Assembly: GCA_963791095.1 (NCBI GenBank)
Contig: CAWBRE010000012.1
Location: forward strand, 9,370 to 73,369
Length of the DNA: 64,000 bases
Reading direction: 5' to 3'
DNA from: an uncultured Solirubrobacterales bacterium
Lineage (GTDB): Bacteria; Actinomycetota; Thermoleophilia; Solirubrobacterales; 70-9
Shown here: positions 3,732 through 63,185 of the stretch, piece by piece
How positions within the stretch are numbered: the first letter of the stretch is position 1
Layout of the letters: every line of letters starts with the position of its first letter
Program-made: the position numbers and the translations under genes
Notes under the pieces: model-generated
What the model saw: the letters and a program-made list of their open reading frames with translations, nothing else
Told to the model about the DNA's origin: nothing
The model's database searches: none

Positions 3732-3862
3732 GCGTCTGCACAAACTCGTCCCAGCGACGAGTTGGTGCAGACGCGTCTGCATTTACCCCTCCAGGGCGGG
3801 GGCAAATGCAGACGCTCAGCGTCGTTGTCTGCATTTACCCCTCAGATACGAGAGGTAAATGC
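3732..3862. repeat. Cluster of three consecutive hairpins (family B, arm GCGTCTGCATTTACCCC) downstream of the MMPL gene
   Basis: 3732-3774: 19-bp stem with 1 mismatch. 3773-3815: 17-bp arms GCGTCTGCATTTACCCC / GGGGCAAATGCAGACGC. 3828-3862: a degenerate third copy. The same arm recurs at 15444-15484. Confidence 0.75.
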
Positions 3863-12341: not shown

Positions 12342-12411
12342 GGGCGGGCCGGGGTGACCCCTGAACGAACCTCCCCGCTGTTGTGAGAGAAGGGGTCACC
12401 CCGGCCCGCCC
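12342..12411. repeat. Family A hairpin element, copy 1 (inverted orientation): 21-bp perfect stem around a 28-nt core
   Basis: GGGCGGGCCGGGGTGACCCCT..AGGGGTCACCCCGGCCCGCCC. The loop is the reverse complement of the core seen at 13041 and 47378, with a few changes. It lies between convergent gene ends. Confidence 0.8.
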
Positions 12412-13022: not shown

Positions 13023-13087
13023 CCCTTGCGAAGGACCCGGGGGTGACCCTTCCCTCACGAACTGCGGGGAGGTTCGTCCAGGGTCAC
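13023..13087. repeat. Family A hairpin element, copy 2: 18-bp perfect stem around the 29-nt core TCCCTCACGAACTGCGGGGAGGTTCGTCC
   Basis: GGACCCGGGGGTGACCCT..AGGGTCACCCCCGGGTCC. The core is identical to the copy at 47378-47406. A partial duplicate of the left arm lies at 13006-13017. Confidence 0.85.
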
Positions 13088-13112
13088 CCCCGGGTCCCTC
13101 TCGACCGCGCGC

Positions 13113-15443: not shown

Positions 15444-15484
15444 CCGTCTGCATTTACCCCCGCCCTCGAGGGGTAAATGCAGAC
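15444..15484. repeat. Family B hairpin: CGTCTGCATTTACCCC-N9-GGGGTAAATGCAGACG (16-bp perfect stem)
   Basis: Read directly. Lies between fmt and rsmB. Same arm as at 3773-3815. Confidence 0.8.
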
Positions 15485-15510
15485 GCCCGCGCCGAGGCAA
15501 GCCCGGTGCG

Positions 15511-20080: not shown

Positions 20081-20132
20081 CGAGCCATTCCGTATGCGGC
20101 TCGGGCAGGCTGAAGCCGCATACGGAATGGCT
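20081..20132. repeat. Perfect 20-bp stem / 12-nt loop hairpin 3' of the decayed DUF559 gene
   Basis: GAGCCATTCCGTATGCGGCT-N12-AGCCGCATACGGAATGGCTC. Flanked by degenerate GTGCGGGAC-type tandem repeats. Confidence 0.75.
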
Positions 20133-20205
20133 CTGAGGCCGGCGGAGGGATGCGCGGGAGTGCGGGAGTGCGGGGCGCGATCTGGCCCTGGACGGTGCCG
20201 ACGGT

Positions 20206-29963: not shown

Positions 29964-30034
29964 GCGCCGCGCATCATTCCAGAGCGCAATGGGCGACGGC
30001 CCCGAGCCGAGACGGGGGCGAGTTCCCTTGCGCG

Positions 30035-30067
30035 GTGACTTATCCACCTGTGAGGGGGATAAGTCAC
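30035..30067. repeat. Family D hairpin, copy 1: GTGACTTATCC-ACCTGTGAGGG-GGATAAGTCAC
   Basis: 11-bp perfect stem. The loop/inner-arm motif CCCCC-N2-ACAGGTGGATAAG (reverse strand) recurs at 63066-63090. Confidence 0.7.
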
Positions 30068-31034
30068 CACGCAAGAGCTCAGGCCTCGCTGGGCCGACTC
30101 GCCGGGCGCCAGGAAGGCGTTGTGTCGAGGCGCCAGGTGGAAGCCCTCGGCATCTCGGCCCGCCAGGTGGATGGCATGGTGCGGGAAGGTCGCCTACTTC
30201 CCGTGTTTCGCGGCGCCCTTGCCTTGGGGCATGCGGCCATCGGGCCGCGGGCACGGATGCGGGCGGCGGGACTCGCCTGTCCAGGGTCGGTGATCTCGCA
30301 TCGGAGCGCGGCCGCATTGCTCGGGATCGGCAAGGTGGCGCCGGTCGTGGTCGACCTGATTCCTCTTCAGCAGCGCGGCCGGGGCATCGACGGGATCAAG
30401 GCTCACCGGGTTCCCTTCCCGAACCGAGCGGAATGGGGCTACGTTGGTGGGATCCCGGTCACGAGTGTGGCGCGGACGATCGTCGACCTGGCGGGGGTGC
30501 AAGGCGAAAGGCAACTGCGGGAATCGGTCGAGCGGGCGGCGACGGAGCGAATGCTGGACGTCGCCGGGATCGACGCGATCCTCGCCAATGGTCCGAAGCG
30601 AAGGGGAGCCCCGTGCCTTCGGCGGATCCTGGCCGACTGGCGGCCCGTCGCCGAAGCCGCGAAGTACGCCACCTTCCGCAGCCTCTTCGAGGCGAAGCTC
30701 CTGCCCTTGGTCGCCGCCACCGGACTGTCGCTCCCCCGATTCAACGCCCCGGTCCGCACGGCGGAGCGAACCCTCGAGGTCGACCTCCTCTGGGAGCACG
30801 CCCGCTTCGTCGTCGAAGCCGACAGCCGCAAGCACCACGGCATCGAGGTCGCCTTCGAGCGTGACCATCGCCGAGCCCGCGAACTGATTGCCGCCGGCTA
30901 TAGCCGTCCTCGGCGTCACCTGGCGCGAAGCGGAAACGAAGCCGCCCGCCGTCTTCGCCGTCATCCGCCAGGAGCTCGAGAAACGCGGCCCGCGGTCACC
31001 GGCCATCCGGACCCGGACTCGAGCCATCCCCTGA
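30035..31034 (+). CDS. DUF559 / AbiEi-like N-domain endonuclease-family protein; frame broken by one extra base near 30903
   Basis: ..GRLAGRQEGVVSRRQVEALGI..GIPVTSVARTIVDLAG..EVDLLWEHARFVVEADSRKHHG..RDHRRARELIAAGY reads in one frame. AVLGVTWREAETKPPAVFAVIRQELEKRGPRSPAIRTRTRAIP* reads in the +1 frame. The true start is uncertain, because the 5' end is the family D hairpin. Confidence 0.75.
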
Positions 31035-31112: not shown

Positions 31113-31166
31113 CGCGGCCCCACTTTGCCCACCTAAGTGCCAGTGAGGTGGGCAAAGTGGGGCCGC
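31113..31166. repeat. Perfect 21-bp stem / 12-nt loop hairpin 3' of the second DUF559 gene
   Basis: GCGGCCCCACTTTGCCCACCT-N12-AGGTGGGCAAAGTGGGGCCGC, about 80 nt after the corrected stop. Confidence 0.75.
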
Positions 31167-44343: not shown

Positions 44344-44492
44344 CGCGCCTCAGCTCTCAGTGGAAGGAGTCGCCATCGACCCCAGCGTATTCCCTGGGCG
44401 CGCTCGCCGGACCCCTCGGGAGTTCCTCACCAGGAACTCCCCGCGAAGCGGGCCTGGAGAGGGACTCCCGAGGGGTCCCCCACCAGCCCGAC
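44344..44492 (-). promoter_or_regulatory. Structured 149-nt gcvT leader (three-way-junction-like; weak resemblance to a single glycine riboswitch aptamer)
   Basis: 13-bp long-range stem ACCCCTCGGGAGT/ACTCCCGAGGGGT enclosing two hairpins. Elements GGGGAG-hairpin-CCGAGGGG-hairpin-CAGG are ordered like a glycine aptamer, but the conserved GAAGGAGCAA core is not matched. Confidence 0.3.
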
Positions 44493-45883: not shown

Positions 45884-46441
45884 CTAATTGGCGGGAGGAA
45901 GTTCGTGATCTTCGCCCCCCACCGCCGGGTGGGTCGGCGCCGTCACGTCTACATAACTGAGCAACGTCACAGAAGGATCGGCCAGCACCTCCGCCGCCGA
46001 TTCCCACTTGCGCGCGACTTCGCGATCGTCGCCGAAGCGGATTTCGATCCCGGTGGCCGTCTCGAGGGCGACCCCGCTCTTGCCGTACTTGGCGCTCGCG
46101 ATGTAGCGGCGGATCGCGGCCGGAGCGGCGGCGATCACGTGCACCTCTTCGAGCACGTGGCCCTTCACCTGGTCGCCCTTCGGCCGTTTCTTCAGCGCCA
46201 GCACGACCAGGTGCTTCTGCTGCTTGCCGCCGCCGCCCTTGTTCGAGTCGGGGGCGGTGCGGGTGCCGAGGATCCTGCCGTCATCGCCGACCATGACCAC
46301 GGTCTTGCCCTCGCCGATCTGGGCCACCGGCGTCGTCGGCTGCGCCTCGGCGGTTGGGGTCGAGGAGCCGCGCAGGGCGAACCAGTAGACGGCCACGGCG
46401 GCGACCGCGACGACCGCGACGGCGATCAGCGCGCGCCTCAT
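45884..46441 (-). CDS. ftsQ: Short FtsQ/DivIB-like cell division protein
   Basis: MRRALIAVAVVAVAAVAVYWF (TM) plus a domain of about 150 aa. ATGA overlap with the murB stop. Assignment rests mainly on its position between murB and ftsZ. Confidence 0.55.
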   Translation of the reverse strand: MRRALIAVAVVAVAAVAVYWFALRGSSTPTAEAQPTTPVAQIGEGKTVVMVGDDGRILGTRTAPDSNKGGGGKQQKHLVVLALKKRPKGDQVKGHVLEEVHVIAAAPAAIRRYIASAKYGKSGVALETATGIEIRFGDDREVARKWESAAEVLADPSVTLLSYVDVTAPTHPAVGGEDHELPPAN

Positions 46442-47358
46442 GCGTCCTCCCAACCGGGGACGACGACGTCGCCCAGCACGTGCACCTCGGGCTCGAGCTC
46501 GACGCCGAACCGCTCCTTCACCCGGCGCCGCCCCTCGGCCATCAGCGCGAGCACGTCGGCGGTGGTCGCCTCGCCGGTGTTCTCGACGAAGTTCGCGTGC
46601 TTCTCGGAGAAGCGGGCGCCGCCGTGGGTGAGGCCGCGGCAGCCGGCCGCCTCCAGCAACTGCCCGGCAGAGCGGCCCTCGGCGCGCGCGTCCTCGGGGT
46701 TCTTGAAGGTGGAGCCGAAGGTCTTGATCCCGGAGGGCTGGGCCTCTTTGCGGCGGCCGCGCATCGAGGCGAGCGTGGCGCGCACCTCGTCGGGGTCGCT
46801 GGGCTCGAGCGCGAAGGAGGCGCGGGAGACCACTTCGCCCGCGGCCAGGTTGGAGTTGCGATAGGCGAAGCCGAAGGCGTCCGGGGTGCGCCGCTCGGTG
46901 CCGGCCGCGGTCGTCACCTCGACCCACTCCAGCACCTCGGCCAACTGCCCGCCGTAGGCGTTGGCGTTCATCCGTACCGCGCCACCGACGGTGCCGGGGA
47001 TGTTGACCCCGAACTCGAGCCCCGCCAGGCCCCAGCCCGGCGTCTTGCCGGCGACCGAGGGCAGCCGGGCGCCACCGCCGCAGCGCAGGTGCGTGCCATC
47101 GCGCTCGACCTCGGTCAACGCACCGTCCAACTTCATCGCCAGTCCTCGGAATCCGTCATCCGCTACCAGGAGGTTCGAGCCCGAGCCGACCACTCCTACC
47201 GGGACGGACGCCTTTTCTGCCCAGGCCAGCAGGGCGGCGAGGTCGTCTTGGGACGCAGGGCGGGCGAAGAAGTCGGCGGGGCCGCCGGTGCGGACCGTGG
47301 TGAGGCGGGCCAGGGGGTAGTCGCGCTCGACGCCGGGTGGGGGTTCGTTGTGGGAGGA
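46438..47358 (-). CDS. murB: UDP-N-acetylenolpyruvoylglucosamine reductase (C-terminal half of the fused 805-aa murC-murB ORF)
   Basis: ..YPLARLTTVRTGGPADFF..GSGSNLLVADDGFRG..GGAVRMNANAYGG..FKNP. No stop and no ATG separate it from murC. Confidence 0.85.
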   Translation of the reverse strand, partial: SSHNEPPPGVERDYPLARLTTVRTGGPADFFARPASQDDLAALLAWAEKASVPVGVVGSGSNLLVADDGFRGLAMKLDGALTEVERDGTHLRCGGGARLPSVAGKTPGWGLAGLEFGVNIPGTVGGAVRMNANAYGGQLAEVLEWVEVTTAAGTERRTPDAFGFAYRNSNLAAGEVVSRASFALEPSDPDEVRATLASMRGRRKEAQPSGIKTFGSTFKNPEDARAEGRSAGQLLEAAGCRGLTHGGARFSEKHANFVENTGEATTADVLALMAEGRRRVKERFGVELEPEVHVLGDVVVPGWEDA

Positions 47359-47425
47359 GGGGGACGAGGGGGACCCTTCCCTCACGAACTGCGGGGAGGT
47401 TCGTCCAGGGTCCCCCTCGTCCCCC
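47359..47425. repeat. Family A hairpin element, copy 3, forming the in-frame linker between murC and murB
   Basis: 19-bp perfect stem GGGGGACGAGGGGGACCCT/AGGGTCCCCCTCGTCCCCC around the identical 29-nt core. Translated as KGDEGDPGRTSPQFVREGSPSSP. Confidence 0.85.
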
Positions 47426-48855
47426 TTCACGGAAGCCTCGCCCGGGTTGGGGGATACCAGGGCCTCCCCCAGCTTGAAGATGTCTCCGGCGCCGATGGTG
47501 ACCAGGATGGAGCCCTCGGGAACGGATTCCAGGCGGCGCTTCAGGAACGCTTCGGCGCGGGCGGCGGTTGGGAGCCAGGCGACTGGTTTGCCCTTGCCTC
47601 GATCCGCGGCGGCTCGGGCTACGTCTAGGCCGCTGACGCCGGCCAGGGGGCCGATCGGCTCCTCGCGGGCGGGATAGACGTCGAGGACGGCGATCTCGTC
47701 GGCGAGGGCGAGGGCGGCGCCGAACTCGGCGGCGAAGACCTTGGTGCGCGAGTAGAGGTGGGGCTGGAAGACGGCGAGGAGGCGCGGCGGGGCCAGGCCG
47801 CGCAGGGCCGAGAGGGCGGCGCGGACCTCGGTCGGGTGGTGGGCGTAGTCGTCATATATGCGGACCCCCCCGCGCTCGCCCTTCACCTCAAGCCGGCGGC
47901 GGACGCCGCGGAAGTCGGCGAGCGCCGCGGCGGCGCGGTCGAGGTCGAACCCGGCGGCCTCGAGCGCCGCCAGCGCCGCGCGCGCGTTGAGCACGTTGTG
48001 AGCGCCGGGAACCGCGAGGTCGAGCGAGGCGGTCGGCGGCTTGGCGGCGGAGAACTCGGCGAGGGTCGGCGGAGCGTCCGGCGGAGCCACGGAGCCTCCG
48101 GTCGCGGCCACCGTCGGTCCGCCGACTAGCGCCTCGCGGACCTCCTCGACCGCGCCGCCCTCGCGGCTCGGGGCCGGCAGCACCGCCACGCGGGACTTGG
48201 CGGCGAAGCCGACGAAGGCCTCGATCAGCGGCTCGAGCGAGCCCCATTTCGAGTGGTGGTCCATCTCGACGTTGGTGATCACGGCGACCTCGGGGTCGAG
48301 GCGGAGGAAGCTGCCGTCGGACTCGTCGGCCTCGGCCACCACCCAGTCGCTCGCTCCCCAGCCTGCGTTGGCCGGGGCGCCGTCGGGACCGAGCCCGGGG
48401 ACCTCGCCGCCGACGAAGAAGGCCGGGTCCTCGCCCAGTCCGCGGAGGGCCCAGACCGCCATCGCGGTCGTCGTCGTCTTGCCGTGGGTGCCGGCGATCG
48501 CGATCAACCGCTTCTCCGCGCAGAGCTCGGCCAGCAGCTCGCCGCGGTGGATCACGGTGAGGCCGCGCTCATGGGCGAGGGCCAGCTCCGGGTTCTCGGC
48601 GGCGATCGCGGTCGAGACCACCACCTCCGCCCCCTCGGGCAGGTTGGCGGCGTCGTGGCCGATCGTCGGCTCGAGCCCCGCCGCCCGCAGACGCTCCATA
48701 TAAGAGGACTCGCTGCGGTCCGATCCGGTCACCTCGGCGCCGAGCCCGGCGCAGACCACCGCCAGCCCGCTCATCCCCGCCCCGCCGATGCCGATGAAGT
48801 GCAGCCGGCGCCCGCTCCAGTCCGTGCCCGTCACGCTTGGGCCCTGGCGCTGCAA
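47426..48855 (-). CDS. murC: UDP-N-acetylmuramate--L-alanine ligase (N-terminal half of the fused ORF)
   Basis: HFIGIGGAGMSGLA, IAGTHGKTTTTAM, DYAHHPTE, TIGAGDI. TTG 48855 or GTG about 48834 as start. Confidence 0.9.
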
Positions 48856-48862
48856 GGAGGTT

Positions 48863-48952
48863 GTAGACCTTGGTCGCCCACAGGGTTACCAAGCTCTACG
48901 ACCCCGGAGGGCTTCTGCCTTTTGTCGCCCACAGGGCGACAAAAGGCAGAAG
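48863..48952. repeat. Two tandem hairpins (family E) with different stems but the same loop motif CGCCCACAGGG, between murG and murC
   Basis: 48863-48899: 12-bp stem with 1 mismatch. 48912-48952: 18-19-bp perfect stem CTTCTGCCTTTTGTCGCC/GGCGACAAAAGGCAGAAG. Confidence 0.75.
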
Positions 48953-48984
48953 GTTGGCGGCGGGCGAGGGTTTGGTCGAGCCCG

Positions 48985-53992: not shown

Positions 53993-55396
53993 CTAGGCGG
54001 CCTCCGCCGCAAGCTCGGTGGCGATGCTCTCCATGCCGACCGCCCGGGAGCCCTTGATCAGGACCACGTCGCCCGCTTCCAGGTGGGACTCCAGCCACTC
54101 GGCCGCCTCGGCCGGGTCGGCGACGAGTTCATCCGGGTCGTAATCGCGGGCGGCGGCGCCGACCCCGAGCACGAGGTCGATCGACCTGCTGCGCGCATGG
54201 CCGCCGACGGCCCGGTGGTGCTCGACCGACTCCGGGCCCAGCTCGCCCATGCCGCCGAGGACGGCCACGGTGCGCGCCCCACCGAGGGTGGCGACGTAGT
54301 CGAGCGCCGCGCGCATCGACACCGGGTTGGCGTTGTAACAGTCGTTCACGAGGAGGATGCCGTCGGCGAGCTTCATCTGTTCGCCGCGAAAGCGGGAGAA
54401 GCCTATGCCCGCGGCGCGGACGGCCATCTCCTCGGGCCCGATCCCGAGCGCGACCCCGCCTGCCACCGCCGCCAGGGCGTTCGTCAGGTTGTACGGCTCG
54501 GCGAAGGGAAACCGGAAGCGCGCCTCGCCCAGCGGGGTGCTGATCAGGGCCGACGTCTCACCCGCGGCCACCTGGACCTCCGAGGCCGCGACGTCGCCCC
54601 CATCGCCGAAGCGCAGGAGGCGCGGGGCGCGCTCCAGGTGGGGCTCGAGCTCACCCGCCTCGACCGGCGCGATCGCGGTGCCGTCGGCGGGCAGGAAGTC
54701 GAGCACCTCGGCCTTGGCGGCGGCGATCGCCTCGACCGAGCCGAGCAGCTCGACGTGGACCGGGCCGACGTTGGTGATGATCGCCGCGTCGGGCTCGGCG
54801 ATCTGCGCCAGCTCGGCGATCTGGCCGGGCCCGCGCATCGCCATCTCGAGCACCAGGCGCTCGGTGTCGTCGGGCGCCTCGAGCACGGTCAGCGGCAGCC
54901 CGATCTCGGTGTTGAAGTTCTGCGTGTTGGCGTGCACGTTGCCGGGGAGGAGGGCGCGGGCGATGTCCTTGACCGAGGTCTTGCCGACCGAGCCGGTGAC
55001 CCCGAGGACCTGGGCGCCGAGCGCCCGCCGGCTGGCGGTGGCGAGGGATTGGAGCGCGGCGAGCGGATCCTCGGTGGCGAAGATCCAGGGCGGCCCGGCG
55101 GGACCGATCGGGGAGACAGGATTTGAACCTGCGATCGCTCGTCCCCCAGTCTCGTAGGCCGCAGCCACTAGCGCCTCGGTGAACTCGGGGCCGACGACCA
55201 CCCCCCAGGCCCCGGCCTCAATCGCAGCCGCGGCGAACTCGCCGCCATCGCGATGCTCGCCGCGCAGGCCGAAGAAGAGGTCACGGAGGCCGACCGCCGC
55301 GGAATCGATGACCGCGCGCTGCGGCAACTCCGAGGAGCCTTCGGCGAGCACCCGTGCGCCGGTCGCGCCCGCGATCTGCGCCCCGCCGAGCCTCAC
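53993..55396 (-). CDS. murF: UDP-N-acetylmuramoyl-tripeptide--D-alanyl-D-alanine ligase
   Basis: 467 aa. GVTGSVGKTS, NDCYNANP. GTGA overlap with the murE stop. Carries an atypical insertion of about 25 aa (see 55108-55180). Confidence 0.9.
   Translation of the reverse strand: MRLGGAQIAGATGARVLAEGSSELPQRAVIDSAAVGLRDLFFGLRGEHRDGGEFAAAAIEAGAWGVVVGPEFTEALVAAAYETGGRAIAGSNPVSPIGPAGPPWIFATEDPLAALQSLATASRRALGAQVLGVTGSVGKTSVKDIARALLPGNVHANTQNFNTEIGLPLTVLEAPDDTERLVLEMAMRGPGQIAELAQIAEPDAAIITNVGPVHVELLGSVEAIAAAKAEVLDFLPADGTAIAPVEAGELEPHLERAPRLLRFGDGGDVAASEVQVAAGETSALISTPLGEARFRFPFAEPYNLTNALAAVAGGVALGIGPEEMAVRAAGIGFSRFRGEQMKLADGILLVNDCYNANPVSMRAALDYVATLGGARTVAVLGGMGELGPESVEHHRAVGGHARSRSIDLVLGVGAAARDYDPDELVADPAEAAEWLESHLEAGDVVLIKGSRAVGMESIATELAAEAA
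55108..55180 (-). other. Degenerate tRNA-Pro(GGG)-like 73-nt segment embedded in frame in murF (not a functional tRNA)
   Basis: In the coding sense it reads ..GCGC-TAGTGGCT-GCGG..CTGGGGGACGAG-CGATC-GCAGG-TTCAAAT-CCTGT-CTCCCCG-A. The T arm, 3' acceptor strand and discriminator match my recollection of actinobacterial tRNA-Pro. The 5' acceptor and anticodon stem do not pair. A/T-ending codons (CTA, ACT, GGA, CGA, GCA, GGT, TCA, AAT, CCT) are atypical for this genome. Confidence 0.55.
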
Positions 55397-56895
55397 GCCG
55401 GGCTGCCCAGCTTGCGCAGCTCCTCGCGGGCGACCTCGCGGTCGTCGAAGGGGATCTTCCGCCCGCCCTCGAACTCCTGTCCCTGCTCATGACCCTTGCC
55501 GGCGATCACCACCGTGTCGCCGCGCCGGGCGCGGCCCAGCGCCAGTGCGATCGCGGCCTGGCGGTCGACCTCGACGATCAGCTCGGCATCGCCTTCGCGC
55601 GCCCCGGCGGCCACTTCGGCGACGATCGCCTCGGGGTCCTCGGAGCGCGGGTTGTCGGAGGTGACGATGGCGAGATCGGAGAGGACGCCGCCCGCCCGTC
55701 CCATCAGCGGTCGCTTGGCCTTGTCGCGGTCGCCGCCGGCGCCGAAGACGGCGATCAGCCTGCCCTCGGTGAGCCGGCGTGCCGCGCGCAGCACGTTCTC
55801 GACCGAGTCGGGGGTGTGGGCGTAGTCGACGAGGACGGCGAAGCCCTGGCCCTCGTCGACCGGCTCGAAGCGTCCCGGCACCCGCGCCGCCGCCGCCAGC
55901 CCCCGCGCCGCAGCCTCCGGCTCGACCCCGAGCGCCGTCGCCGCCGCGAACGCCCCGAGCGCGTTCGCCACGTTGAAGTGCCCCGGCATCCCCGTCCCCA
56001 CCCGCACCTCGGTGTCGATGGGCCGAAAACTCAAGCCCTTATGGTCCGGTTTTCGGCCCATCAACACGGTGAACTGGGCGCCCCCCGCGTCGAACTCGAC
56101 GTCGATGGCGCGGTAGTCGGCGTCGGCGCCTTCGGCGGAGAAGGTCAGGCACTCGAATTCCTCCGCCAGGCGCCGGCCGTAGGGATCGTCGACGTTGACG
56201 ATCCGCACCCCCGGCTCGGCTTCGAACAACTTGCGCTTGGCGACGAAGTAGTCCTCCATGTCGGCATGGAAGTCGAGGTGGTCCTGGGTCAGGTTGGTGA
56301 AGACGGCGGCGTCGAAATGGATCGCGTCGGCGCGGTGCAACACCATCGCGTGCGAAGAGACCTCCATCGCGCAGGCCTTGTCGCCACCCTCGAGCATCCG
56401 GCGGAACGTCTCCTGCAGGTCGATCGCCTCCGGGGTGGTCCGTTCGACCGGCTCCTCCTCCCCGCCGACCACCTGCTTGACCGTGCCCATCAGCCCGGTC
56501 TGGATCCCCGCCGCTTCGAGGATCTCGCGGGCCAGGTAGGCGGTCGTCGTCTTGCCGTTGGTGCCGGTCACCCCGACCACCTTCAGCTCCGCCGTCGGGT
56601 CGCCCCAGAAGGCGGACGCGAACGGCGCCATCGCCGCCCGCGCGCTCGGCACCACCACCTGCGGCACCGCGACCTCCAGCTCCCGCTCGACGACCAGCGC
56701 CACCGCCCCGGCCTCGACCACCTGCGCCGCAAACTCGTGCCCATCGCGCTTTTCCCCGACCACGCAGAAGAAAAGCGTCCCCGGACCCGCCTTGCGCGAG
56801 TCATAGGCGAGGTCGGCGATCTCGACCGTGGGATCGCCCAGGATTCGGGTCCGGTCCGCGCCCGAAGACGCTTTGAGGAGATCTTCCAGCTTCAC
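55393..56895 (-). CDS. murE: UDP-N-acetylmuramoyl-L-alanyl-D-glutamate--2,6-diaminopimelate ligase
   Basis: C-terminal 500 aa of ORF 55393..57519, from GTG 56895 (VKLEDLLK). GVTGTNGKTTT, DYAHTPD, GAGGDRD, DNPRSEDP. Confidence 0.92.
   Translation of the reverse strand: MKLEDLLKASSGADRTRILGDPTVEIADLAYDSRKAGPGTLFFCVVGEKRDGHEFAAQVVEAGAVALVVERELEVAVPQVVVPSARAAMAPFASAFWGDPTAELKVVGVTGTNGKTTTAYLAREILEAAGIQTGLMGTVKQVVGGEEEPVERTTPEAIDLQETFRRMLEGGDKACAMEVSSHAMVLHRADAIHFDAAVFTNLTQDHLDFHADMEDYFVAKRKLFEAEPGVRIVNVDDPYGRRLAEEFECLTFSAEGADADYRAIDVEFDAGGAQFTVLMGRKPDHKGLSFRPIDTEVRVGTGMPGHFNVANALGAFAAATALGVEPEAAARGLAAAARVPGRFEPVDEGQGFAVLVDYAHTPDSVENVLRAARRLTEGRLIAVFGAGGDRDKAKRPLMGRAGGVLSDLAIVTSDNPRSEDPEAIVAEVAAGAREGDAELIVEVDRQAAIALALGRARRGDTVVIAGKGHEQGQEFEGGRKIPFDDREVAREELRKLGSPA
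56017..56062. repeat. About 45-bp palindromic element inserted in frame in murE (14-bp perfect arms, 18-nt loop)
   Basis: GATGGGCCGAAAAC-TCAAGCCCTTATGGTCCG-GTTTTCGGCCCATC. Lower GC than its flanks. Translated as MGRKPDHKGLSFRPI, in a segment where MurE proteins normally have no such residues (from memory of E. coli and M. tuberculosis MurE). Confidence 0.7.
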
Positions 56896-62273: not shown

Positions 62274-63185
62274 TCAGAAACCTGAGAGCAGGGTCCCCGC
62301 GTTGGCGATCAGTCCGGCGGCGATCATCAGCATCACCGAGGGGACGAGGACCAGGGCGACGACCAGCTGGATCTTCGGCGCGGCGCGGGCGGCCCGCTCT
62401 TCGACCGCGCGGCGACCGTCGCGACGGAGCGAGGACGCCTGGCGGCGGAGCTGGTCGGCAAGCGGCGAGCCGAAGCGCCGCGAACGCTCGATCGAGGCGA
62501 CGAGCGTCGCCAGCTCACTGCCCGGGACGCGGGCGCGCAGCGCGGCGAGGGCGGCGGTGAGCGAGGCGCCGCAGGAGAGCTCGGCGACCGCGATCCGCAT
62601 CTCCTCGGCCAGCGGTCCCTCGCCCGCCCGCGCCAGCTGGGCCAGCCCGTCGGCCGGGCCACGGCCGGAGGCGACGCTGACCGCGAGCAGGTCGAGGGCG
62701 TCGGGCAGCGCGGCGACCAGGCGGCGGCGCCGGCGGCGCGCCTCCCGCTCGAGCAACGCGTCGGGGAGGAAGAAGCCGGCGGCCGGGAGCCCGAGCGCCA
62801 CAGCGAACGCGAGCCGCCCCGGCGCCGCGGGCGCGGCGGCGACCGCGAGGATCGCCCCGAGGGTGAGCCCGGCGAATTTCGCCAGCAGTAGCGCCGGGAG
62901 CGGGAAACGCGCTTGCAGGCCGGAGCGACGCAGGCGCTCCGGGAGGTTCAGCCAGAGCGCGACGCGGGCCCAGCGCGGGTCGAGGCGCGCCCCACCCTCG
63001 CCCGGCGAGCCCCGTCGACCGCCGCCTTCGCCGCCCGACTCGGCCGGATCCGTTGCGCGGTTCGAAATCCCCCGTACAGGTGGATAAGGAACCGCGCGAC
63101 GCTGCGCCCTCGCCACCAACACCTCGCGGCCGGCGGCGAGGGCAAGCAGCGTCGCCAGCGCGAAGAGAAGGCCGACCGGGGTCAC
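62274..63185 (-). CDS. tadC: Tad pilus inner-membrane platform protein (T2SS F-domain), TadC-like
   Basis: 303 aa. LPDALDLLAVSVASG..SLTAALAAL..RRFGSPLADQLRRQA, C-terminal TMs. Contains the family D hairpin in its N-terminal loop. Confidence 0.7.
   Translation of the reverse strand: MTPVGLLFALATLLALAAGREVLVARAQRRAVPYPPVRGISNRATDPAESGGEGGGRRGSPGEGGARLDPRWARVALWLNLPERLRRSGLQARFPLPALLLAKFAGLTLGAILAVAAAPAAPGRLAFAVALGLPAAGFFLPDALLEREARRRRRRLVAALPDALDLLAVSVASGRGPADGLAQLARAGEGPLAEEMRIAVAELSCGASLTAALAALRARVPGSELATLVASIERSRRFGSPLADQLRRQASSLRRDGRRAVEERAARAAPKIQLVVALVLVPSVMLMIAAGLIANAGTLLSGF
63055..63097. repeat. Family D hairpin, copy 2, inside the tadC ORF
   Basis: GCGCGGTTC-GAAATCCCCCGTACAGGTGGATAAG-GAACCGCGC. 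It encodes PYPPVRGIS, the same peptide string (YPPVRGIS) as the copy at 30035. Confidence 0.7.

What the first reader, a model, noticed from the sequence alone, without database searches (positions are those of the whole stretch)
56017..56062. A perfect-armed ~45-bp palindrome sits in frame inside the essential gene murE
GATGGGCCGAAAAC-N18-GTTTTCGGCCCATC (14/14 complementary arms) is noticeably AT-richer than its surroundings. It is translated without a stop as MGRKPDHKGLSFRPI. The flanking residues (..GGAQFTVL / DTEVRVGTGMPGHFNVANAL) line up with the usual MurE spacing only if these 15 residues are removed. This is the signature of a small palindromic mobile or repeat element inserted in frame into a coding sequence. 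Such insertions are well known for Rickettsia palindromic elements, but to my knowledge not described for high-GC actinobacteria. The fmt, murC/murB and tadC cases below suggest it is recurrent in this genome.
Basis: partly seen in the sequence, partly recalled or inferred. Interest (0 to 1): 0.72.

Follow-up and report, generated by a model that had tools for sequence, protein, structure and literature searches.

The report
Palindromic repeat translated inside murE
A 46-base hairpin-forming repeat, found in many copies in genomes of the soil actinobacterial order Solirubrobacterales, sits in frame inside the essential cell-wall gene murE and adds a 16-residue loop; such "coding palindromes" are known from Rickettsia, but I found no report of them for this group.

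Summary
Window 56017-56062 is a perfect 14+14-nt palindrome with an 18-nt centre, read without a stop in murE (minus strand).

- **Repeat family.** The same arms occur in more than 113 places, at least 117 copies, in at least 22 Solirubrobacterales assemblies. The consensus is GTT-GATGGGCCGAAAAC-[5-bp variable stem, 5-nt centre, 5-bp stem]-GTTTTCGGCCCATC-AAC.
- **Location of copies.** Most are intergenic and favour gene 3' ends. About 13% are read in frame inside other genes (purQ, dnaE2, pabB, glycosyltransferases).
- **Empty site.** A relative with 92% identical murE DNA lacks exactly these 48 nt. Another relative carries a 45-nt version.
- **Age.** About 100 of 120 close MurE homologues, and 18 of 80 more distant murE loci, carry the element at the same β-hairpin. 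Their DNA has diverged but stays palindromic through changes on both arms.

Corrections: the indel is 16 codons here, not 15. The window holds only this one copy. The other hairpins in the window belong to different families.

I found no transposase and no target-site duplication, so how the element moves is inferred. This is a new member of a known kind (Rickettsia palindromic elements, intragenic REPs). Interest is moderate.

The parts
56017..56062 (.). Core palindrome: 14-nt arms GATGGGCCGAAAAC / GTTTTCGGCCCATC around an 18-nt centre
   Evidence: The identical arms occur in 117 copies in other genomes.
56031..56048 (.). Central 18 nt (tcaagcccttatggtccg). The ends are not self-complementary. 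It looks like a chimera of two family centre types, TCAAG..CTTGA and CGGAC..GTCCG. It is 15 nt in 103 of 117 family copies.
   Evidence: The closest filled orthologue, L196, has CGGACCATATGGCGG here.
56007..56072 (.). Full match to the family covariance model R1 (63 positions), including the GTY/RAC junctions and the outer flanks CCTCGGTGT / AACACGGTG
   Evidence: 56.7 bits, E = 3.5e-14; 19-nt arms at 95% complementarity.
56017..56064 (-). The 48 nt (16 codons, LMGRKPDHKGLSFRPI) that are absent from the empty-site orthologue L194
   Evidence: Three-way DNA alignment.
55993..56016 (-). The 24 nt immediately 3' of the insert on the coding strand (DTEVRVGT). About 54% identical to the empty allele against about 91% for the whole gene. 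The first 10-12 nt resemble the family's own outer flank.
   Evidence: Unexplained.
55393..56895 (-). murE CDS (500 aa, GTG start, VKLEDLL...), host of the element
   Evidence: ORF. (homologues with PF01225, PF08245 and PF02875). (2WTZ, E = 1e-98).

Best explanation
The palindrome is a copy of a dispersed, non-coding palindromic repeat family. The core is about 49 nt and the element reaches about 65 nt with its weaker outer flanks. The family is specific to Solirubrobacterales. It behaves like REP/REPIN-type selfish DNA.

The family lands in intergenic DNA, mostly just after genes, and sometimes in coding DNA. A copy inside a gene survives only if the reading frame stays open and the protein tolerates the extra loop. 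Two of the three frames are open in the common GTT-type element. The third frame contains TGA.

In murE the element sits between the two strands of a β-hairpin of the central Mur-ligase domain. It is translated in the frame that reads LMGRK-x7-FRPI(N/D). This lengthens the hairpin by 15-16 residues without destroying the enzyme.

The occupied allele is old. It is shared by most close relatives and by part of the more distant ones. Because murE is essential, imprecise deletion would be lethal, so the copy persists.

Its two arms keep evolving together. I infer that this is a DNA-level process, either conversion from other family copies or hairpin-templated repair, rather than selection on the peptide or on the mRNA.

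Shown: family membership, the filled/empty polymorphism, in-frame copies in other genes, and changes on both arms. Inferred: that the peptide is translated and tolerated, how the element moves, and what keeps it palindromic.
For: **Family.**
- These loci hold 117 copies, 103 of them with a 15-nt centre.
- The inner 5-bp stem is fully complementary in 50 of 102 copies, against about 10 when arms are re-paired at random.
- Covariation score is 0.198 against 0.119 in shuffles, with 0 of 500 shuffles reaching it. Pair types are, for example, UA 49 / CG 45 and GC 50 / AU 26 / CG 9.

**Context of copies.**
- 13-15 of 117 copies lie inside long coding-type ORFs.
- Pfam domains span or flank the insert in PurQ (GATase_5), the DnaE2 PHP domain, GT87, GT2, PabB and AccA.
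- Three reading frames are used: VDGPKT..FSAHQ, LMGRK..FRPIN, and a third (RWAEN..VFGPS) that is open only in GTC-type copies. What is conserved is therefore the DNA, not a peptide.
- In 11 copies the upstream ORF ends at the element's own TGA. Coding 3' ends abut the element 22 times against 8 for 5' ends.

**murE.**
- 107 of 120 close homologues carry [LS][MT]GRK-x7-[FN]RP[IV][ND] at this site, and 13 lack it.
- 18 of 80 metagenomic murE loci (65-88% identity) match the family model at the same position, E = 3e-17 to 2e-5.
- The empty allele L194 is 91.8% identical across murE and lacks exactly 48 nt. The filled allele L196 is 90.2% identical.
- Among 17 distinct murE-resident copies, 85.6% of cells pair against 74% in shuffles (0/500), and 12 of 22 pairs changed on both sides. 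M/T covaries with I/V (ATG/CAT to ACG/CGT).
- G·T pairs on the sense strand (9) do not exceed A·C pairs (14). There is thus no sign of selection on the mRNA strand.

**Structure.** The insert falls in the hairpin [19 protein letters not shown] of 2WTZ. In the AlphaFold model it lies between strands 272-279 and 295-301, and pLDDT dips to 62 against 83 and 80 in the neighbouring blocks.
Against: - No transposase was found. A crude HUH...Y motif scan of 895 kb around copies gave one implausible hit.
- No direct-repeat target-site duplication is visible at the murE junction. Mobility is inferred only from the number of copies and from presence/absence differences.
- The 64-kb window holds only this one copy, so the family may be rare or extinct in this genome.
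- Empty alleles do not form a clade when judged by the rest of the protein.
- The 24 nt downstream of the insert differ far more between filled and empty alleles than the gene does. The history is therefore more complex than one clean insertion.
- There is no direct evidence that the peptide is translated or that the enzyme is unaffected.
- The AlphaFold model is only moderate (mean pLDDT 73.8).
Confidence: 0.8

Rival explanations
1. Same element, different history: the murE β-hairpin site is a hot spot that the family has invaded repeatedly and independently in different lineages. In this view there was no single ancient insertion kept palindromic in place.
For: - Two junction types occur in murE, and both subtypes also occur among intergenic copies. 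Close homologues have GTG-TTGATGGG..CCCATC-AAC. Distant ones have (C/T)CGA(T/C)GGG..CCC(A/G)TCGGC.
- The centre types found in murE (PDHMAG, ALDISA, LDTEAS, LKEGLS, TTIWRTN) are discrete and track MurE distance only weakly.
- L146 carries a double insert.
- Empty alleles are interspersed among filled ones.
Against: - The position is the same to within one or two codons in all lineages.
- Half-changed intermediates exist (L179, L192, L163), as expected for change in place.
- Allelic recombination among relatives would also scatter empty and filled alleles.
- No insertion-site consensus could be derived.
Confidence: 0.3
2. The hairpin has been co-opted. It is kept in murE because the DNA or RNA structure does something, for example an mRNA processing, pausing or stability signal within the dcw operon, or a protein-binding site. 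Alternatively, the extra MurE loop itself has a function.
For: - The hairpin is very stable in the mRNA, -41.9 kcal/mol, z = -5.9.
- Palindromy is retained through double changes across murE orthologues of 65-90% identity.
- Intergenic copies prefer gene 3' ends, as do REPs that act on mRNA.
Against: - There is no excess of G·U over A·C pairs on the sense strand, 9 against 14.
- Many related lineages do without the insert.
- The same DNA is read in three different frames in other proteins.
- The centre is hypervariable, and in this genome its inner stem is broken.
Confidence: 0.12
3. The insert is not translated. Ribosomes bypass the hairpin, as with T4 gene 60 or the mitochondrial 'byp' elements.
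For: The element is a stable hairpin of about 45-50 nt inside a coding sequence, a size similar to known bypassed gaps (from my own knowledge of those systems, not tested here).
Against: - All of about 125 filled murE orthologues keep the insert a multiple of 3 and free of stop codons.
- Every intragenic copy in other genes is also in an open, continuous frame.
- Where the TGA-containing frame is used, the ORF ends at a natural C-terminus, for example the histidine kinase in L048 and L103.
Confidence: 0.02
4. The palindrome is a chance feature of a conserved peptide, or an assembly artefact.
For: Only one copy exists in the window.
Against: - More than 100 copies lie outside murE, most in non-coding DNA, in assemblies from different projects and assemblers.
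- The family model scores the site at E = 3.5e-14.
- Filled and empty alleles exist among relatives.
Confidence: 0.01

Closest known systems
Rickettsia palindromic elements (RPE; Ogata et al. 2000 and 2002, as summarised in PMC10969869 and PMC3733652)
   Same: - A palindromic repeat family that is dispersed through the genome.
- Many copies lie in frame inside unrelated housekeeping genes and are translated as extra loops compatible with the fold.
- The host genes remain intact.
   Different: - The classic RPE-1 is about 100-150 bp, against a 43-49 nt core here (about 65 nt with flanks).
- The host is a free-living, 71% G+C soil actinobacterium, not a reduced AT-rich intracellular alphaproteobacterium.
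- Only about 13% of copies are intragenic here.
- Sequence similarity to RPEs was not tested.
Intragenic REPs of the GTAG and CGTC superfamilies (Di Nocera et al. 2013, PMC3733652)
   Same: - Short palindromic repeats, mostly downstream of genes.
- The ends sometimes supply the stop codon of the flanking ORF.
- A minority lies entirely inside ORFs, including replication and repair genes. Here dnaE2 is among the hosts.
   Different: - There is no unpaired GTAG or CGTC tag. The junction is GTT/AAC or GTC/GAC, and it is paired.
- The stem is 22 bp or longer, against 5-13 bp.
- The inner stem varies between genomes.
- The paper lists no Solirubrobacterales family.
REPIN-RAYT systems (PMC3116915, PMC3337134)
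   Same: - Two inverted conserved arms separated by a short spacer, folding into one long hairpin.
- Tens of copies per genome.
- Lineage-specific sequence variants and long vertical persistence.
   Different: - No RAYT or other tyrosine transposase was found near copies (a crude test).
- The arms are not themselves REP stem-loops.
- REPINs are described as extragenic.
Bacterial MITEs (Correia/NEMIS, ERIC, RUP and others; review PMC10969869)
   Same: Small non-autonomous repeats that can form in-frame fusions with host ORFs.
   Different: - MITEs are typically 70-300 bp, with terminal inverted repeats and a target-site duplication.
- Here the whole element is one hairpin.
- No duplication is seen at the murE junction.

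Membership tests
Rickettsia palindromic elements (RPE) | Palindromic repeat found in frame within protein-coding genes that stay intact | tested here: met
   murE. purQ, dnaE2, GT87 and GT2, with Pfam domains spanning the insert.
Rickettsia palindromic elements (RPE) | Size about 100-150 bp (RPE-1) and sequence similarity to the RPE-1 to RPE-10 consensus in Rickettsia | tested here: not met
   The core is 43-49 nt and about 65 nt with flanks. The host is Solirubrobacterales. Sequence similarity to RPE consensus sequences was not tested, because no RPE library is on hand.
REP (GTAG/CGTC superfamilies, PMC3733652) | Short stem-loop with an unpaired terminal GTAG or CGTC tag; stems of 5-13 bp | tested here: not met
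   The consensus is CCCCnnTGTT-GATGGGCCGAAAAC..GTTTTCGGCCCATC-AACATnGGGG, with paired GTT/AAC junctions and no GTAG. The stem is 22 bp.
REP (GTAG/CGTC superfamilies, PMC3733652) | Multi-copy, mainly intergenic, preferentially downstream of ORFs | tested here: met
   104 of 117 copies lie outside long coding ORFs. 56 of those 104 are within 150 nt of a gene 3' end. 3' ends abut the element 22 times against 8 for 5' ends. The gene calls are crude, based on G+C at third codon positions.
REPIN-RAYT | A cognate single-copy RAYT (IS200-like tyrosine transposase) flanked by the repeats | tested here: inconclusive
   A motif scan (HxH..Y) of 895 kb around copies found nothing credible. Whole genomes could not be scanned.
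MITE | Target-site duplication flanking terminal inverted repeats | tested here: not met
   The filled/empty comparison at murE shows a clean 45-48-nt indel between GTG and RAC, with no direct repeat.
Programmed translational bypass elements | The insert need not keep the reading frame and may contain stop codons | tested here: not met
   All filled murE orthologues and all intragenic copies are in open, continuous frames.
Any Rfam RNA family | Score at or above the family's gathering threshold | tested here: not met
   No hit in the window at gathering thresholds. The best weak hit on the element is a miRNA-precursor model at 26.5 bits against a threshold of 67.
MurE (UDP-MurNAc-tripeptide synthetase), the host gene | Three Mur-ligase domains and close similarity to solved MurE structures | tested here: met
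   Homologues carry PF01225, PF08245 and PF02875. 2WTZ matches at E = 1.1e-98 over residues 21-488. The gene lies in a dcw cluster between the PBP gene and murF.

The most novel reading that the evidence does not exclude
The murE copy is not a passive passenger. In this reading it is a protected 'safe-harbour' copy. It sits inside an essential gene, where imprecise loss is lethal, and a DNA-level mechanism keeps it palindromic. From there it persists through speciation and may re-seed or homogenise the genome's population of this repeat. This would explain four observations: the copy is the only one in this 64-kb window; its flanks resemble the family's outer consensus; centre types are swapped or chimeric; and the family has survived across a whole order.
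Probability: 0.12. Interest if true: 0.75.

Novelty: new member of a known kind. Interest (0 to 1): 0.55.

Why it matters
- **Scope.** Coding palindromes are not limited to Rickettsia and a few REP-rich Gram-negatives. They also occur in free-living, high-G+C soil Actinomycetota, and in essential genes such as murE, purQ and dnaE2.
- **A natural experiment.** The murE case spans more than 100 orthologues with the insert and a set without it. It can show how a protein tolerates a 15-16-residue loop. It can also show how a DNA-level constraint (palindromy) shapes a coding sequence: arm codons covary (M/T with I/V) while the centre is hypervariable.
- **Annotation.** Such inserts inflate apparent protein divergence. 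They create apparent gene fusions and supply stop codons. They could also serve as fine-scale strain markers for uncultured Solirubrobacterales.

Tried and rejected
- **Other copies in the window.** Pattern search with up to 2 mismatches and the covariance model with filters off found none.
- **Rfam.** Nothing at gathering thresholds. Only chance hairpin hits on the element at permissive thresholds.
- **Source genome.** An exact look-up of this MurE (P0001) was not on record. BLAST of the window against all fetched loci gave no near-identical contig.
- **murE among the genome-contig hits.** None of L001-L113 contains murE. I could therefore not compare a genome's murE copy with its own intergenic copies.
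- **Transposase.** The HUH/Y motif scan was uninformative.
- **Monophyly of empty alleles.** Distance clustering and a search for diagnostic columns found no clade. A proper recombination-aware phylogeny was not run.
- **Link to the window's other hairpins.** They are different families and are absent from the fetched loci. I rejected the idea that they are copies of this element.
- **integron attC-like site.** Considered from memory and rejected. The attC conserved ends run AAC...GTT, the opposite of GTT...AAC here, and GTTGATG does not fit GTTRRRY.
- **Literature.** Searches for Solirubrobacterales, actinobacterial intragenic MITEs and REPIN/RAYT returned no description of this family. The library is not exhaustive.
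Full report
**Observation**

Window 56017-56062 is GATGGGCCGAAAAC-tcaagcccttatggtccg-GTTTTCGGCCCATC. The two arms are the only matches to the 14-mer in the window, even with two mismatches allowed. With one mismatch the arms extend to 19 nt, 56012-56030 and 56049-56067. The element is 57% G+C in a window of 71%.

It lies in the minus-strand ORF that encodes MurE (CDS 55393-56895, 500 aa from a GTG start). There it is read as ...GGAQFTV-LMGRKPDHKGLSFRPI-DTEVRVGTGMPGHFNVANAL. The 76-nt region folds into one long hairpin. The free energy is -41.9 kcal/mol as RNA and -23.8 kcal/mol as DNA, with z-scores near -6.

**It is a member of a dispersed repeat family**

All were in Solirubrobacterales or unclassified Actinomycetota MAGs, from at least 22 assemblies made with different assemblers.

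These loci hold 117 copies, and 103 of them have a 15-nt centre. The consensus is CCCCnnTGTT-GATGGGCCGAAAAC-[5 nt][5 nt, often TATAT/ATATA][5 nt]-GTTTTCGGCCCATC-AACATnGGGG.

- **Inner stem.** The 5+5 nt next to the arms are complementary but differ between copies (ttgcc/ggcaa, ccgcc/ggcgg, tcaag/cttga). They pair fully in 50 of 102 copies, against about 10 when left and right halves are re-paired at random.
- **Genome-specific variants.** One variant tends to dominate in a given MAG (one search read together).
- **Covariation.** On the alignment the covariation score is 0.198 against 0.119 in shuffles (0 of 500 reach it). When the 3' partners are slid by 1-3 columns, 29-48% of cells pair against 84% for the structure itself. 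G·U pairs are rare.
- **Window copy.** A covariance model built from these copies scores the window element at 56.7 bits (E = 3.5e-14). Nothing else in the 64 kb exceeds 13.8 bits.
- **Density.** In 97 of the seed loci the model found only about seven further copies with imperfect arms. This suggests tens of copies per genome rather than hundreds.
- **Rfam.** No Rfam family matches.

**Where the copies sit**

A crude gene caller based on G+C at third codon positions gave the following.
- 104 of 117 copies lie outside long coding ORFs.
- The median distance to the nearest gene 3' end is 94 nt.
- 56 copies are within 150 nt of a 3' end.
- In 11 copies the upstream ORF stops at the element's own TGA, in GT-TGA-TGG.
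- Coding 3' ends abut the element 22 times against 8 for 5' ends.

In two genomes the element lies between a histidine-kinase gene and its response-regulator gene and supplies the kinase's stop codon.

Thirteen to fifteen copies lie inside real genes and are read through.
- Pfam domains span the insert in PurQ (GATase_5; three genomes, same site), in the PHP domain of a DnaE2-type polymerase (two genomes), in a GT87 glycosyltransferase and in a GT2 glycosyltransferase.
- In PabB and in an acyl-CoA carboxylase α subunit the insert lies between domains.
- Three frames are used: VDGPKT..FSAHQ, LMGRK..FRPIN, and a third (RWAEN..VFGPS) that is open only in copies with a GTC junction.

What is conserved is therefore the DNA, not a peptide module.

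**The murE site**

Of the 120 closest MurE homologues (84-100% identity), 107 carry [LS][MT]GRK-x7-[FN]RP[IV][ND] at this point. Thirteen have a short hairpin instead, mostly FTV-EGKAEIR-TGMPGH. The arms are conserved. The middle falls into discrete, very different classes (PDHMAG, ALDISA, LDTEAS, LKEGLS, TTIWRTN and others). M/T at the left covaries with I/V at the right, which is the palindrome ATG/CAT changing to ACG/CGT.

Among 80 metagenomic murE loci of 65-88% identity, 18 match the family model at the same position, and many others have no insert. Their DNA has diverged yet remains palindromic. Examples are CCGACGGGACGAAATGTCAAG-gcaga-CTTGACATTTCGTCCCGTCGG in L135 and a comparable perfect variant in L165.

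Across 17 distinct murE-resident copies:
- 85.6% of cells pair, against 74% in shuffles (0 of 500);
- 12 of 22 pairs changed on both sides;
- when the 3' partners are slid by 1-3 columns, only 22-43% of cells pair;
- half-changed intermediates exist (L179, L192, L163).

G·T pairs on the sense strand (9) do not outnumber A·C pairs (14). Nothing therefore points to selection on the mRNA strand in particular.

**Filled and empty alleles**

Syntenic 21-kb loci were fetched from three close relatives, and two of them (L194 and L196) were aligned with the window.
- L194 is 91.8% identical to the window across murE and lacks exactly 48 nt, between GTG (Val) and the next codon.
- L196 is 90.2% identical and carries a 45-nt version with the centre CGGACCATATGGCGG.
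- There is no direct-repeat duplication at the junction.

The window's 18-nt centre, CGGACCATA|AGGGCTTGA on the coding strand, looks like a chimera of the CGGAC..GTCCG and TCAAG..CTTGA centre types seen elsewhere in the family. This hints at exchange between copies.

Two things remain unexplained.
- The 24 nt downstream of the insert are only about 54% identical between filled and empty alleles. Their first 10-12 nt (RACACCGAGG) resemble the family's own outer flank.
- Empty alleles are not a clade when judged by the rest of the protein. Their nearest neighbours are mostly filled, and no column outside the hairpin discriminates them.

Allelic recombination, or repeated gain and loss, must be involved. 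I could not tell which.

**Position in the protein**

In the alignment to M. tuberculosis MurE (2WTZ, E = 1e-98) the insert falls in [25 protein letters not shown], which is 12 residues shorter. In an AlphaFold model (mean pLDDT 73.8) it lies between strands 272-279 and 295-301, with lower confidence than its neighbours: 62 against 83 and 80. From general knowledge of Mur-ligase structures, this is a peripheral antiparallel hairpin of the central domain. Surface exposure was not measured here.

**Mechanism**

Best supported: this is a REP/REPIN-like selfish palindrome that spread in Solirubrobacterales.
- Copies inside genes survive only in open frames and in tolerant loops.
- The murE copy extends a β-hairpin and is translated. 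The frame and the absence of stop codons are kept in about 125 orthologues (107 close homologues and 18 metagenomic loci), which argues against ribosomal bypass.
- Because the gene is essential, the copy is hard to lose.

The persistent palindromy fits a symmetric DNA-level process, namely conversion from other copies or hairpin-templated correction. That step is inferred. No transposase was found, so the mode of movement is unknown.

**Comparison with known systems and novelty**

The behaviour matches Rickettsia palindromic elements and the intragenic REPs catalogued by Di Nocera et al. (PMC3733652; review PMC10969869).
- It fails the formal definitions of GTAG/CGTC REPs: there is no tag and the stem is 22 bp.
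- It fails the definition of MITEs: there is no target-site duplication.
- It differs from RPE-1 in size and in host.
- A RAYT association could not be tested properly.

I found no description of such a family in Solirubrobacterales or other Actinomycetota in the searchable literature. I rate it a new member of a known kind, of moderate interest. The deep conservation and arm covariation inside an essential gene are its most notable features.

Noticed in passing
window 12342-12411, 13033-13097, 47358-47426 (and a diverged relative at 44409-44478): A second hairpin repeat family of about 65-70 nt. It has perfect 18-21-nt outer stems that differ between copies and a shared core, tccctcacgaactgcggggaggttcgtcc. 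It is unrelated to the murE family and nearly absent from the fetched loci of other genomes. A 71-nt copy is present in relative L196 (position about 1166) but absent from L194, so it is polymorphic.
   Followed up: partly
window 46438-48855 (-), hairpin at 47358-47426: murC and murB form one 805-aa ORF. The second-family hairpin lies in the linker and is read as ..KGDEGDPGRTSPQFVREGSPSSPS... The MurC-MurB fusion is also called in L194 (844 aa) and L196 (766 aa), with length differences in the linker and inside MurC.
   Followed up: partly
window 3773-3815, 3826-3841, 15445-15485: A third hairpin family with arms CGTCTGCATTTACCCC, at least three copies in the window. The copy at 15445-15485 lies near the 5' end of a minus-strand ORF.
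   Followed up: no
window about 48825-48964 (contains hairpin 48912-48952): A 140-nt block with two hairpins between murG and murC. It is present in the window and in L194 but absent from L196, where murG and murC overlap. This is another presence/absence polymorphism.
   Followed up: partly
window 63051-63101: An imperfect 23-nt-arm palindrome inside the tadC-like (T2SSF) ORF 62274-63185 (-), read as ..QRRAVPYPPVRGISNRATD... The three-way alignment showed no indel of 12 nt or more here, so it is not shown to be an insertion.
   Followed up: partly
window 20082-20133, 31114-31166, 30034-30068: Further perfect hairpins with stems of 20, 21 and 12 bp and no second copy in the window or in the fetched loci. 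Their context was not examined.
   Followed up: no
window about 55131-55169 (murF, minus strand): A 39-nt in-frame segment in murF (encoding about VAAAYETGGRAIA) that is present only in the window and absent from both L194 and L196. It is not obviously palindromic.
   Followed up: no
L048:3728-3770 and L103:1466-1508: In two other genomes the murE-type element lies between a histidine-kinase gene and its response-regulator gene. It supplies the kinase's TGA stop codon, and the centre sequences differ between the two genomes.
   Followed up: yes
L012, L052, L102 (purQ); L062, L063 (dnaE2); L024, L044 (pabB): The same element occupies the same in-frame site in orthologous genes of two or three different genomes, with different centre sequences. 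These are further conserved coding insertions like the one in murE.
   Followed up: partly
L146:1415-1507: One metagenomic murE carries a double or partly duplicated insert (SMGRKVHSGSSSRPVDTEDSSFRPVGGE) at the same site.
   Followed up: no
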